Below are positions 509 through 64,000 of a stretch of 64,000 nt of DNA, one piece after another. Position 1 is the stretch's first letter. Each line of letters begins with the position of its first letter. The stretch lies in NCBI GenBank assembly GCA_905178155.1, contig CAJINV010000014.1:359181-423180 (forward strand). The letters run 5' to 3'. A model generated the notes under the pieces. It did not search any database, was not told the origin of the DNA, and saw nothing but the letters and a program-made list of their open reading frames with translations. Source of the stretch: Amoebophrya sp. A120 (lineage: Eukaryota > Protista > Dinoflagellata). The position numbers and the translations under genes were made by a program.

Positions 509-1290
509 TCATTTGTCCTTCTTGGTTTCTTTCGCAGTGGCAAATTTCTGAACGGGCAGTCCGATTTCTTCGTCGGCGCTCCGCTTCCCACAACAGGTGG
601 AGATGCAAACCACACAGGACGGTATCACCTGCAAAAGCAAAAGCTATTCGTACGCTTTTGCACTTTTATGTATATGCAACCTTTCACAATACTTACTGCC
701 GCACTAATATTAATACAAGTCTCGCCTTTTTTATCCCTTTCGTCTCGGAATTGCGAAGCTGTACATAATGTGCTTTTGCAGTTGCAATTCATAAACAGGA
801 TACAAAATCCAAAAACCGCGGTCATGACAATGACCAGCACCACCACCGTCGCTGCCGCGTGCTCCTCGGTTGGCCGGGCGCCGAGGATGTCCCGCTGGGC
901 CTTCATCAGAACATCCTTCTATGGGGGTGTCAGGATCGAAATCGTCAAAATCGAAAAAGTTGTGATGCACAAAATCGATGCCAGTTAGACCCACAGTTTG
1001 TAGTCGGCGCATGACAAATTCTCCCCATCCTGGAGGCGAATCTGTCATGCGGGTTGGGGCAAAAGGGCTGCCTTCTGTCATGCTAGTCAGCAGCCCAACA
1101 CTTAACCCTTACCAGGACTACAATCCGCCTTCCTTGCATCCTCTGCAATAGGGTCGCTTTTTGCGTAGCATTTTATGCATTACAGATCATTTCAACTTTG
1201 ACGATTTCAATCCTGACGCTTCCATACCTTCGCGTATTCCTGTAACGGAAGCAAGTGGCTCGCCATTGTGGCGCTCGCAGAGGCAAACAT
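509..1290 (-). CDS. Hypothetical 97-aa single-pass membrane protein, 3 exons
   Basis: Removing TIR elements 920-1226 and 623-793 (each +5 nt) gives MFASASATMASHLLPLQEYAK|DVLMKAQRDILG...VVVLVIVMTAVFGFCIL|SCVVCISTCCGKRSADEE...KKDK*; hydrophobic segment followed by a Cys cluster. Confidence 0.7.
623..793. mobile_element. TIR introner element (non-canonical intron)
   Basis: Left tatcacctgcaaaagcaaaagc vs right revcomp tatgaattgcaactgcaaaagc; DR gacgg/aacag (3/5). Confidence 0.7.
920..1226. mobile_element. TIR introner element
   Basis: About 37-bp imperfect TIR tatgg...gtcaggat.gaaatcgtcaaa; perfect DR ccttc at 915-919 and 1227-1231. Confidence 0.9.
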
Positions 1291-2113
1291 GACTGCTTAT
1301 TCTTGTCCTTTTCTATTCCTTTAGACGATTGGTAGACACGAGAAAAACGACGAAAGCAAAAACTGTTGCCTGCCCCACTCTCGTATAAAATCTTTGTGGA
1401 TCTGCTGTTGCATGCAGTTTTTCTTTTTGAGCAATGAATACTTCTCTTTTTTTCATATACTCACTCAGCGTCAGCACTGCCGTGTTACTTTCCGTGCGCA
1501 CATTTCTTTGCGAAAAAAACTGAAGCATGAAAAAAATTCTTCACAAGAAAATGAAAAAAAGCATGGATCAAAAACTTATGCAGCACAAAGATGTGGCGTG
1601 CCAGTGAAACGGGTCGACGTAGTTAAGACTGTTGCAAATCAATGTTGAAGCCGAAAGAAGAAGCACCAGTACGACGACCGAATCGAATGATGTAATCCAG
1701 CACCAAAAAAAAAAACCAACATCAATGGCGATACCACGACGCTATTCGGTGCCCGCTTTTGCAGTCGAAGCCTTAGCGTTTGCTTGTTGTAAGTGTACGC
1801 CAAATATTAGAAAACTTCTTTTCTTGAGCAGCTGTGTTTAATCAATGAAATCCGCGGTGCTTCTCAAAAACACAGTCCTGAGCTGTGCGGTACAAAATGA
1901 TACATCCCGTAAAAATGCTGCTATGCTTCTTGTTGCAATGAGCAAGTCATTCCTCTTCTTGCAGTTGCGTGGCAAAGTGTAAATTTTGAGGAACAACCTC
2001 AAAACAGGGTACTTGGCGAACGTTAAAAACAGGGTATCATGCTGAGTCGCGCTCGCAGCCTTATTGCAAGGAACAGTGGAAATGCATTCTTTTCCGTTCT
2101 TTCCTTTTACTAT

Positions 2114-3073
2114 TTACAAAATAGTGCAACTTTCCAAGTCCTCGCTCGCTCGCTTTTCCATATCAAATGCAAATATGTCTGGGTCTGGAAGATTCTAAAC
2201 TTGTGATGCTGTCTCCGGATTCGAAAAAGATTTGTATTGCATGACCAGAAAGAGAACTCCAGTTTGTGCTCCGCGGAAAGGGCATTTCTCATGCGGAATA
2301 GGCATTACGAAGCCCTCTAAGAATCTGTGATGCTGGGGCATGCATTACAAACATCATGGGCTGTGCAAAATATGCATGACAAACCTGGCAATCTGCCAGA
2401 CCTAGACATATTTGCAGTTCATATTCCATCATGTGCACCATTTTCGCAAATCGCTCCTTTGCCTTCTCTATCCTGTGCAAAAAGTATCGTAGTAGTCGAA
2501 CTTGCACTACAAATGTTTCCAAGAGCGAAAATGGAGTTTGTAATGCTGATTTTGCTTAGGAGTGGGATTTGTCATGCATGATCGCAATTACCACCAGTAC
2601 GATACTTTTGCACAGGATATTCTCCTGGTCGTAGCTTTCCCCCTGTTTTTCCTTCTTCTCCACCTCGAGGTCGATGTACTCCGCGACGATTGCCCTCTGC
2701 TTCGCGTGGAGGCTTTCGTAGCGGTATGAGACTACACAACTGGTGCCTCTCTTCGCTCCTGACTTGAAAGGCGGGAACAGCAATAGAAACGCCTACAAAT
2801 AACATCAACATGGAGCCTCAGCATGACAAGTTCTTAATTATGCGACGCATGTATCAGTAATAGTTTGGCTGCTTCCGGAATTTGTCATGCAAACACAAAC
2901 AGCGCCACAAGGACGATTGGAGTTGGTGTTTTGCACGAGGGAATCGTGCATGAGAAGAACTATCTAGAGGAAGCTGTGCACTCTCATAAGCGTTGCTGGA
3001 AGTTCAGATTTGCCTCCTCATCCATCGCGGGAAGCGACGGGAGACGGCTACACAGCTCGGAGTAGGCCACCAT
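2114..3073 (-). CDS. Hypothetical 88-aa protein ending in a CaaX box (CTIL), 4 exons
   Basis: Removing three elements (+5 nt each) leaves 267 nt: MVAYSELCSRLPSLPAMDEEANLNFQQR|YESLHAKQRAIVAEYIDLEVEKKEKQGESYDQE|KAKERFAKMVHMME|KRASEDLESCTIL*. Confidence 0.8.
2161..2423. mobile_element. TIR introner element, main family (TATCAAATGCAAA.ATGTCTGGGTCTGGAAGA)
   Basis: 32-bp TIR with 4 mismatches; perfect DR ttcca. Confidence 0.92.
2469..2619. mobile_element. TIR introner element
   Basis: TIR tatcctgtgcaaaa(a)gtatcgta; perfect DR ttctc. Confidence 0.9.
2725..2988. mobile_element. TIR introner element
   Basis: TIR tatgaga.t.caca.ct; DR agcgg/agcgt. Confidence 0.8.
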
Positions 3074-63700: not shown

Positions 63701-63725
63701 GGCCTGTCCCTTCGGCATCGGGCGA
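54770..63725 (-). CDS. Giant family member E, 5' end outside the window: family C-terminal domain followed by three OTU-like repeats and a low-complexity tail
   Basis: Shares [14 protein letters not shown] and [17 protein letters not shown] with A-C; joins in frame across seven elements; 3' end uncertain. Confidence 0.75.
55880..56209. mobile_element. TIR introner element, main family
   Basis: TIR; DR tttgc/tcttc. Confidence 0.8.
56316..56659. mobile_element. TIR introner element (DR lost)
   Basis: TIR tatggaaacg.aaaag; removal +5 nt gives HEYRGL|IVRES. Confidence 0.75.
57075..57360. mobile_element. TIR introner element
   Basis: TIR; perfect DR tcacc; gives SALV|MGVDL. Confidence 0.88.
57561..57831. 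mobile_element. TIR introner element, main family (DR degenerate)
   Basis: (c/t)atcgaacgc...gtc.gggtc.ggaa at both ends. Confidence 0.8.
59521..59861. mobile_element. TIR introner element, main family
   Basis: TIR tatg.a.tgcaaatatgt; DR gagat/gacat. Confidence 0.85.
62564..62899. mobile_element. TIR introner element (right end uncertain by 6 nt)
   Basis: Removal gives MLKDH.|GDLSSRVSPHF, colinear with paralogues. Confidence 0.75.
63325..63643. mobile_element. TIR introner element
   Basis: TIR tatggaggcgtc....tggaaat; gives DYGRRCS|HAHNGKW. Confidence 0.85.
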
Positions 63726-64000
63726 TATTCTGAGGAAAAATCCCCCCTCCCCATATCGAAAAGGTATGTTTCCGAAAATTTGCGTTGCTGATTTGAGCCT
63801 TAGTTCCGCATGATATCCGTAGGCCAACGTCGGGGGTCCCTCACCCCCAACACGCCGAACTTCCTCCTTCCACACGCAGCGTCGGAGGGGTCGCACGTAG
63901 CCCTGGAGGTGATAAACGAGGGTGGCGCCTGTATATGCAGTAAAATACTGCACAGGAAATGAGGAAGTCAGAAAGGAACACAAATGTTCTGGGATGACTG
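63726..64000. mobile_element. Partial TIR introner element, second family
   Basis: tattctgaggaaaaatcccccctccccatat matches the end at 23745; partner end not seen in the window. Confidence 0.75.

What the first reader, a model, noticed from the sequence alone, without database searches (positions are those of the whole stretch)
509..64000. Pervasive MITE-like non-canonical introns: TAT...ATA, TIRs of up to about 37 bp, 5-bp direct repeat
Seen: 27 complete elements of 151-1691 bp, all inside genes or gene copies. In reconstructed genes, removing the element plus exactly 5 nt restores a sensible frame, for example an 88-aa protein ending in CaaX and a 614-aa protein across six elements. Most lack GT-AG ends. 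Known: introner elements with inverted and direct repeats were reported in Amoebophrya genomes (Farhat et al. 2021), so the class is not new; the excision machinery is, to my knowledge, unresolved. Inference: splicing recognises a stem formed by the TIRs.
Basis: partly seen in the sequence, partly recalled or inferred. Interest (0 to 1): 0.75.

Follow-up and report, generated by a model that had tools for sequence, protein, structure and literature searches.

The report
Transposon introns cut at fixed offsets
In a marine parasite of algae, small jumping DNA elements sit inside genes and are missing from the RNA contigs together with one copy of their 5-base insertion repeat; this class is already published, but the cut likely falls at one fixed offset from the element's ends, which makes the unknown splicing machinery testable.

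Summary
I count 26 complete TAT…ATA elements (151–1691 bp) and one cut by the window end. The window's RPL30 is identical to Amoebophrya A120's, and the ends match the published A120 introner motif (Farhat 2021), so the class is known. RNA contigs (one sample) lack element+5 nt at 10 of the 12 elements in the stretches laid; the other two had no cover. DNA contigs keep the junctions.

What I did not find stated in print:
(1) The repeat is exactly 5 bp: 282 of 401 elements in a sister assembly, against 1 at 4 bp and 0 at 6 bp.
(2) Five junctions with unequal repeats all fit one cut, 1 nt before the 5' TAT and 4 nt after the 3' ATA.
(3) There is no bias towards GT or AG. Among 320 oriented elements the U at intron +2 never varies (0 vs 8 on the mirror arm), and the A at −7 seldom does (2 vs 9).
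(4) An internal 8-mer decays in old copies while the outer 14 bp persist.

The best reading is stem-guided, ruler-type splicing by a relaxed spliceosome. A Euglena-like non-spliceosomal route stays open, and G·U bias gave no support for stem selection.

The parts
623..793 (-). element, 171 bp, DR 3/5; in small gene 1290–509
920..1226 (-). element, 307 bp, 37-bp TIR, exact DR; GT-AG in the fitted register
2161..2423 (-). element, 263 bp, exact DR, main family; in 88-aa CaaX gene 3073–2114
2469..2619 (-). element, 151 bp, exact DR
2725..2988 (-). element, 264 bp, DR 4/5
10642..10903 (-). element, 262 bp, exact DR, main family; in 1121-codon frame 13987–10076
13527..13803 (-). element, 277 bp, exact DR, main family
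22115..22393 (-). element, 279 bp, exact DR; absent from RNA contig (by record spacing)
22573..22781 (-). element, 209 bp, DR 4/5; absent from RNA contig; register at least 1
23448..23698 (-). element, 251 bp, exact DR; absent from RNA contig (by spacing)
23745..24067 (-). element, 323 bp, exact DR; absent from RNA contig (by spacing)
24153..24431 (-). element, 279 bp, 32/32 TIR, exact DR; absent from RNA contig; GT-AG in the fitted register
24913..26603 (-). longest element, 1691 bp, exact DR, filled with GC-rich tandem repeats, no Pfam hit; only its left junction was laid
21804..26710 (-). host gene, 614 aa after removing six elements with 5 nt each
29687..29885 (-). old element, DR 2/5; paralog residues need register at most 1
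29956..30117 (-). old element, DR 1/5, 3' arm ends ATG; conserved Cys needs register at least 1
37711..38001 (-). old element, DR 3/5; joins a 592-codon frame
40730..41001 (-). paralog of the 29687 element, DR 2/5
41072..41247 (-). paralog of the 29956 element, DR 1/5
45475..45747 (-). main-family element, DR 4/5; three paralogous copies (near 29455, 40498, 48866) are empty with a single 5-mer
55880..56209 (-). element, DR 3/5; absent from RNA contig (74 = 79−5 nt); register 0 or 1
56316..56659 (-). element, DR 0/5; RNA joint 56311→56661 fixes the intron as 56312–56660 (register exactly 1)
57075..57360 (-). element, exact DR; RNA joint skips 291 nt
57561..57831 (-). element, DR 2/5, 3' arm ends ATG; RNA joint skips 276 nt; register 1 or 2
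59521..59861 (-). element, DR 4/5; RNA joint skips 346 nt; register 0–2
62564..62899 (-). element, DR 3/5; no RNA cover; paralog residue prefers register 3 or more (against the rule)
63325..63643 (-). element, DR 3/5; no RNA cover; conserved Cys needs register at most 3
63726..64000 (-). incomplete element of the 23745 family, runs off the window
54770..63799 (-). host gene, 2255-codon stop-free frame across seven elements

Best explanation
These are the Amoebophrya A120 introner elements: non-coding TIR elements with an exact 5-bp target duplication that are absent, with one copy of the duplication, from RNA contigs, likely cut 1 nt before the 5' TAT and 4 nt after the 3' ATA by a likely relaxed spliceosome for which the predicted TIR stem brings the ends together. 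Shown: the structure, the insertion with a 5-bp duplication, the RNA-level removal of element+5 nt, and no GT/AG preference. Well supported on few junctions: the 1/4 register. Inferred: the palindromic end reads N|UAU as a 5' splice site whose +1 base is free and whose +2 U is required, like this genome's GTA donors. Read from the other arm it supplies an A seven bases from the 3' end, which would be the branch nucleotide, and the 3' cut would be set by distance. Both ends are alike, so either orientation splices and any exon position tolerates insertion. Mobilisation is inferred to be by one integrase-type DDE transposase that binds the shared internal TGT(A/C/G)ATGC motif; no such transposase was found here.
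For: RNA: record spacings of 122, 175 and 74 nt equal exon length minus 5 nt per element and fit no other value tested, 3 to 7. Four direct joints were seen. Admissible registers are {1}, {1,2}, {0,1,2}, {0,1} and {1–5}; their only common value is 1. Paralog residues give ≥1, ≤1 and ≤3. An exact 5-bp DR occurs in 282 of 401 elements found without using the DR. In RPB1 of the sister assembly, +5 gives the best ungapped match at 4 of 4 elements. One element with an 8-bp DR stays in frame when 5 nt are removed. DR composition equals exon background: G at +1 in 47 of 158, AG in 15 of 158. TIR position-1 variants are 0 on the 5' arm vs 8 on the 3' arm, and position-3 variants are 9 vs 2, among 320 oriented elements; Fisher p=0.0007. 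All 9 top A120 non-canonical donors in Farhat Table S4 have T at +2, and the top A25 donors are TT with IRs starting TTA, so +2 U and +3 A hold in both strains. U2, U4, U5, U6 and 83 of 89 spliceosomal proteins are reported in A120, U1 is not. The internal 8-mer occurs 44 times in 8.6 kb of elements vs 9 times in 54.6 kb outside, and falls to 2.2/kb in old vs 8.6/kb in young copies while TIR positions 1–14 stay matched at 0.82 vs 0.84.
Against: The register rests on five RNA junctions from one sample, typed 'RNA? (a guess)', and only one fixes it alone. One paralog test (62564) prefers register 3 or more. A DNA-only polarity test on 44 elements with unequal repeats showed no signal. There is no G·U bias in the arms. 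The A−7 asymmetry alone is p=0.065, and no yUnAy context is favoured on the 3' arm. The A−7 is predicted paired in the stem (pair probability about 0.7), which a branch A would have to leave. A free +1 base and a free 3' dinucleotide are far from known U2 chemistry (own knowledge). Retention of the outer TIR in old copies is partly due to how I detected them, and is weaker in the sister loci. No lariat, snRNA or transposase evidence was obtained.
Confidence: 0.5

Rival explanations
1. Same elements and same 1/4 register, but removed by a non-spliceosomal endonuclease–ligase system that measures from the TIR stem and releases a circle, as proposed for euglenid nonconventional introns.
For: Junction bases are sequence-free. 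The ends are predicted to pair, also in old RNA-confirmed copies. In the window's oldest copies (four independent) positions 1–14 all pair as Watson-Crick or G·U. Euglena uses a stem with fixed spacers, N3 and N5-6, and circles. U1 is not detected in A120.
Against: The arm-specific need for U+2 matches spliceosomal donors in both strains. The commonest terminal variant, 5' UAC against AUA, is a C·A mismatch and not a wobble. There is no overall wobble bias. No candidate enzyme was tested.
Confidence: 0.3
2. The cut is not fixed: any staggered position inside the 5-bp repeat is used, as Farhat et al. describe ('variable'), and my five junctions agree by chance.
For: The Fig. 3 and S23 legends report IRs 1–5 nt from splice sites. 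In Gozashti Dataset S2 (21 of 58 A120 rows seen) the offsets differ by family. The 62564 paralog test and the null polarity test also fit.
Against: Exact repeats make aligner placement ambiguous, which alone yields apparent variation. Four further junctions fit the one that is fixed exactly; by my estimate the chance is 2/6×3/6×2/6×5/6, about 0.05. Row fam160 of Dataset S2 shows the same 1/4 offsets with a 5-bp TSD.
Confidence: 0.12
3. A minor (U12-type) spliceosome, undetected so far, reads N-TATC as its RTATCCTT donor and tolerates odd ends.
For: Many 5' ends read NTATC and some NTATCCT. Physarum U12 introns with inverted repeats are a precedent.
Against: U11, U12, U4atac and U6atac are reported absent. 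There is no 5'-arm preference for CCT, +1 is random, and A25 ends are TTA.
Confidence: 0.05
4. The elements are excised from DNA (IES-like) before transcription.
For: Element+one repeat is what precise DNA excision would leave. 434 of 449 joints were not shown.
Against: DNA contigs run through five exon–element junctions at depth 38–41, against 43–45 in unique DNA, and none of the 15 joints shown is a clean empty site.
Confidence: 0.03

Closest known systems
Introner elements / non-canonical introns of Amoebophrya sp. A120 (Farhat et al. 2021, PMC7789003; sections 10, 12, 16, 36, passages of 11, supplement parts 2–3; figures not seen)
   Same: Same organism by RPL30 (100% over 110 aligned residues). 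IR motif TAT + 7 nt + AAA or more, short DR, hairpin, about 240–270 nt, RNA-supported removal.
   Different: The paper gives DRs of 3–5 nt, IRs of 8–20 nt and variable splice positions, and doubts a general transposase origin. Here the DR is exactly 5, TIRs reach 37 bp, the register is one fixed value, the terminal constraints are arm-specific, and an internal 8-mer is shared across families.
A120 TIR-DNA introner families in Gozashti et al. 2025 (PMC12130899; passages and 21 of 58 A120 rows of Dataset S2)
   Same: Classed as TIR DNA, family unknown. Family 38 has TIRs and integrase-like ORFs but is not Ginger. Row fam160 has a 5-bp TSD with 1/4 offsets.
   Different: Automated TSD calls range from 2 to 5 bp and I saw no common register stated.
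Euglenid nonconventional introns (PMC12501133 abstract and discussion; PMC11282704 section 6)
   Same: TIR stem, TSD-like repeats, free junction bases, fixed spacers between stem and cuts, coexistence with GT-AG introns.
   Different: The code is N3-CDG…CH'G-N5-6|R against N1-TAT…ATA-N4 here. Circles are shown there and untested here.
IS3EU/GingerRoot DNA transposons (PMC10045372, PMC12730594; passages)
   Same: TA..TA termini (TAYGG..CCRTA); TAC variants occur here too.
   Different: Their TSD is usually 6 bp, here it is 5 bp, and no transposase was found to place the elements.
Fritillaria borealis non-canonical MITE introns (PMC11282704 section 6; bioRxiv 2025.08.15.670264 passages)
   Same: TIR/TSD-derived introns without GT-AG, reported as spliceosome-excised.
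   Different: They have preferred ends (AG-AC, AG-AT); here the end dinucleotides are NT and NN at random.

Membership tests
Amoebophrya A120 introner elements | IR starts TAT, then 7 variable nt, then at least AAA | tested here: met
   against the text
Amoebophrya A120 introner elements | 3–5 nt direct repeat at the exon/intron boundary | tested here: met
   exactly 5 bp: 282 of 401; 11 of 26 exact in the window
Amoebophrya A120 introner elements | Repeated families across the genome | tested here: met
   main family 65–80% alike within the window; up to 94 of 144 loci hit by one window element
Amoebophrya A120 introner elements | Removed from RNA without GT-AG ends | tested here: met
   10 of 12 elements in laid stretches bridged, 2 uncovered
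Amoebophrya A120 introner elements | Host is Amoebophrya A120 | tested here: met
   RPL30 100% identical to the A120 record, 96–97% to AT5.2, 85–95% to A25; one gene only
MITE (non-autonomous TIR transposon) | TIRs, fixed TSD, no coding capacity, empty allelic or paralogous site | tested here: met
MITE (non-autonomous TIR transposon) | Cognate autonomous transposase | tested here: inconclusive
   no transposase/integrase Pfam hit in 14 window ORFs or 141 of 212 locus ORFs of 200 aa or more; genome not held
IS3EU/GingerRoot | TA..TA termini | tested here: met
IS3EU/GingerRoot | 6-bp TSD | tested here: not met
   0 of 401 exact at 6 bp
U2-type spliceosomal intron | GT (GC) … AG ends | tested here: not met
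   GT-AG in 7 of 298 in register 1; GY-AG in 19 of 298 in any register
U2-type spliceosomal intron | Lariat at a branch adenosine; snRNP dependence | not testable with these tools
   only the indirect A−7 asymmetry, 2 vs 9
U12-type intron | RTATCCTT donor | tested here: not met
   +1 random; no 5'-arm bias at +5 to +8
Euglenid nonconventional intron | N3-CDG…CH'G-N5-6|R code | tested here: not met
   here N1-TAT…ATA-N4 with no purine preference after the cut
Euglenid nonconventional intron | Excised as a full-length circle | not testable with these tools
   contigs cannot show it; raw-read runs X9 and X10 did not lay on unique sequence

The most novel reading that the evidence does not exclude
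A transposon end that is a complete, orientation-free splicing code. The palindromic TAT/ATA terminus serves as the 5' splice site (free +1, required U+2) on one arm and as the branch adenosine (−7) on the other. The TIR stem replaces U1 and the AG acceptor, so a U1-less spliceosome removes the element plus exactly one 5-bp duplication from any exon position. Only insertions whose duplication is 5 modulo 3 would survive in exons.
Probability: 0.35. Interest if true: 0.78.

Novelty: already known. Interest (0 to 1): 0.5.

Why it matters
About 65% of A120 introns lack GT-AG and how they are removed is an open question. A fixed 1/4 register with two named nucleotides turns that question into specific tests: lariat at A−7 versus circle, and U+2 and A−7 mutants. 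It also gives a simple rule for re-annotating tens of thousands of junctions that aligners place arbitrarily inside the repeat. If the spliceosome does it, it would accept any +1 base and any 3' dinucleotide, which is wider than the Fritillaria case as reviewed. If it does not, it is a second, independent euglenid-like splicing system.

Tried and rejected
No whole genome is held, so there was no genome-wide transposase or snRNA search; the records behind the loci are not searchable either. The run finder listed no holder on record as RNA. X3–X6 were judged RNA because they skip GT-AG introns such as 18738–18928 and have zero depth over stretches between genes such as 20200–21479. Raw-read runs X9 and X10 laid only on element ends (98 and 3 reads, 98–100% running on unlike) and are no evidence either way. 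The TIR pattern had 0 hits in viral contigs and Rfam had 0 hits in the window. Polarity of DR mismatches by AT bias or codon score gave no signal in 44 elements. G·U bias in the arms was absent, as was any sense-versus-antisense folding difference. Long TIR pairs with an exact DR gave no transposase-like ORF; those I read were nested elements (L061) or chance pairings (L056, L058). Candidates rejected as elements in the window: 45793–46101 (paralog exon sequence), the 14187/15465 inverted repeat (no TAT/ATA pair or DR), and PWM-scan pairs without DR or frame support such as 18796–19211 and 37711–37867 (shuffles reach scores up to about 40). A 6-bp TSD (IS3EU) was rejected. Rows dropped: 187 of 401 elements were not oriented and 58 of 378. 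Literature searches listed no paper on branch points or a fixed register for Amoebophrya. Roy et al. 2023 (Curr Biol) was not read, Farhat's figures (Fig. 3, S19–S25) were seen as legends only, and 37 of 58 A120 rows and files 13–14 of the Gozashti supplement were not seen; any of these may already hold the register.
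Full report
OBSERVATION. A scan for TAT…ATA pairs found ten with an exact 5-bp direct repeat (DR) and at least 13 of 20 TIR matches, against about 0.03 in 30 shuffles. Adding family matches, a weight-matrix scan, RNA joints and frame tests gave 26 complete elements (8,327 bp) and one cut by the window end. The DR is exact in 11 of 26 and decayed in the rest, down to 0/5. Host genes lie on the minus strand. Removing element+5 nt gives stop-free frames of 96, 682, 1121, 604 and 1676 codons, while +3, +4, +6 and +7 do not. 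With the full list, seven elements join one 2255-codon frame and two paralogs of 1057 and 1068 codons close up.

ORGANISM AND CLASS. The window's RPL30 is 100% identical to the Amoebophrya sp. A120 record over both exons, 96–97% to AT5.2 and 85–95% to A25. Farhat et al. 2021 (PMC7789003; passages and sections read) state that A120 IR motifs start with TAT, then seven variable bases, then at least three A, with DRs of 3–5 nt. That is this motif. The class is known in this very organism.

INSERTION. Three paralogous gene copies lack the 45475 element and carry one copy of its 5-mer. A TIR pattern scan of metagenome contigs returned 144 loci, all from one other assembly, 601 kb with overlaps. They share element families with the window at up to 96% identity, and the longest matches to the window are all element sequence. 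Among 401 elements detected there without using the DR, exact repeats number 282 at 5 bp, 1 at 4 bp and 0 at 6 bp; shuffles gave 4–7 calls against 477. In RPB1 (L061), removing +5 gives the best ungapped match to a homolog at 4 of 4 elements, and the exons on either side of one element both map to yeast K830. An 8-mer, TGT(A/C/G)ATGC, occurs 44 times in 8.6 kb of window elements and 9 times in 54.6 kb outside, and in 366 of 378 locus elements, typically 41–43 nt from each end. I infer that it is a transposase-binding site shared by all families. No transposase was found among 14 window ORFs or 141 of 212 locus ORFs. The TA..TA ends resemble IS3EU/GingerRoot, whose TSD is 6 bp, so membership fails on TSD length. 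An integrase-type enzyme is still the best guess, given Gozashti's family 38.

RNA VERSUS DNA. Two stretches were laid (15400–24990 and 53000–64000), holding 12 of the 26 complete elements. One X3 contig crosses five elements with record gaps of 122 and 175 nt, exactly exon length minus 5 nt per element. In the second stretch four joints skip 349, 291, 276 and 346 nt, and a 74-nt gap covers a fifth. The elements at 62564 and 63325 had no cover. X3–X6 are one sample typed 'RNA? (a guess)'; X3 also skips GT-AG introns and leaves stretches between genes uncovered. Retention in a minority of transcripts cannot be excluded from contigs. DNA contigs (X1) pass through five exon–element junctions at near-genome depth; 15 of 449 joints were shown and none is an empty site. 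X1 may be the assembly's own source, so it is not independent.

WHERE THE CUT FALLS. Exact repeats hide the cut; unequal ones reveal it. Counting bases of the upstream repeat that go with the intron, the five informative junctions allow {1}, {1,2}, {0,1,2}, {0,1} and {1–5}. The first is seen as a joint in X3 and X6 and as a matching loose end in X5. The only shared value is 1, so the intron is N-TAT…ATA-NNNN. Paralog residues agree in three independent cases (≥1, ≤1, ≤3) and disagree in one (62564: Met in register 1 where paralogs have Leu). An element with an 8-bp repeat keeps its frame when 5 nt go. A DNA-only polarity test was null. In print, Farhat's legends call the positions variable, 1–5 nt from the IR; yet all nine top A120 non-canonical donors in Table S4 have T second. 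One of 21 A120 rows seen in Gozashti's Dataset S2 (fam160) shows 1/4 offsets with a 5-bp TSD, and others differ.

WHAT IS RECOGNISED. The repeat bases are free: in 158 oriented elements with exact repeats, composition equals exon background, with G at +1 in 47 and AG at the acceptor in 15. GT-AG arises in 7 of 298. Elements lie in both orientations. The arms are predicted to pair (0.6–0.9 at most positions), with a mismatch-rich zone at TIR positions 4–7. In the window, 11 old copies (DR 3/5 or less) have lost the 8-mer (2.2 vs 8.6 per kb, p=0.007) and the inner TIR (0.32 vs 0.65) but keep positions 1–14 (0.82 vs 0.84). This is partly a detection effect and is weaker in the loci. Against pure stem selection, G·U-type and A·C-type mismatches are equal (143 vs 150; 10 vs 15 in old locus copies), although the window's four oldest independent copies show only G·U departures in positions 1–14. 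Terminal variants are polar. Among 320 elements oriented from flanking exons (agreeing with neighbours in 253 of 265), position-1 variants are 0 on the 5' arm and 8 on the 3' arm, position-3 variants 9 and 2, position-2 variants 2 and 3 (Fisher p=0.0007, binomial 0.008 and 0.065). The window's three position-1 variants (two independent) are also on the 3' arm. A single strand-biased mutation process cannot give opposite directions at positions 1 and 3. In intron terms, U+2 is kept and A−7 nearly so.

MECHANISM. I favour (0.5) a U1-less spliceosome that reads N|UA as a relaxed donor, branches at A−7 and sets the acceptor by distance, with the stem supplying the bridging. The +2 U and +3 A match this genome's GTA donors and, through a shifted register, the A25 TT donors. 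The branch step is inferred from one weak asymmetry, has no consensus context, and the A is predicted paired. A Euglena-like stem-measuring endonuclease–ligase (0.3) fits the free junctions and fixed spacers. Variable cutting (0.12), a hidden U12 system (0.05) and DNA excision (0.03) are less likely.

NOVELTY AND VERDICT. Already known as a class and in this organism. The exact 5-bp TSD, the 1/4 register, the polar U+2/A−7 constraint and the shared internal 8-mer were not stated in what I read (searches). Roy et al. 2023, Farhat's figure panels and part of Gozashti's supplement were not seen. Interest 0.5: not a new element, but it makes an open splicing question directly testable.

Noticed in passing
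window 29334–64000: Tandem family of predicted membrane-anchored proteins (copies near 32875–29334, 38717–36646, 44038–40377, 51696–48742, plus fragments) with a hydrophobic N-terminal segment, Cys-rich domains and Pro/Ala/Thr repeats of 18 or 21 bp. The last domain recurs in the 2255-codon gene. No Pfam hit for the three ORFs scanned from it.
   Followed up: partly
window 7172–7807: RPL30 gene with one ordinary GT-AG intron, used to name the organism.
   Followed up: yes
window 16996–20135: Gene with GT-AG introns only (weak JAB/MPN hit, E=0.0016), spliced in the same RNA run, so both intron types work side by side.
   Followed up: partly
window 3861–6122: 753-codon ORF with a Misato segment II tubulin-like domain (E=2e-10) and no element inside.
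   Followed up: no
window 14187–15465: 21-bp perfect inverted repeat around GC-rich hairpins and the 847-base N gap; not a TAT…ATA element.
   Followed up: partly
window 51900–52880: GC-rich intergenic block with a G/C-run palindrome at 52734–52799; similar in style to the inside of the 1691-bp element and to L061 1340–1700.
   Followed up: no
L056 6329–6608: Young element with an 8-bp instead of 5-bp direct repeat; removing 5 nt would leave one extra codon in frame.
   Followed up: yes
L123 76–330: Element with an apparent 7-bp (or 4-bp) direct repeat inside a CTT run; it does not fit the 5-modulo-3 idea unless it is non-coding or the repeat is a chance effect of the run.
   Followed up: partly
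L061 6001–6972 and 7517–7756: A 972-bp element with extra inserted sequence in a conserved RPB1 exon, and another element inside a GT-AG intron of the same gene (a possible neutral control).
   Followed up: partly
loci L001–L144, TIR position 4: T at TIR position 4 is rarer on the 5' arm than on the 3' arm (4 vs 12 of 320).
   Followed up: no
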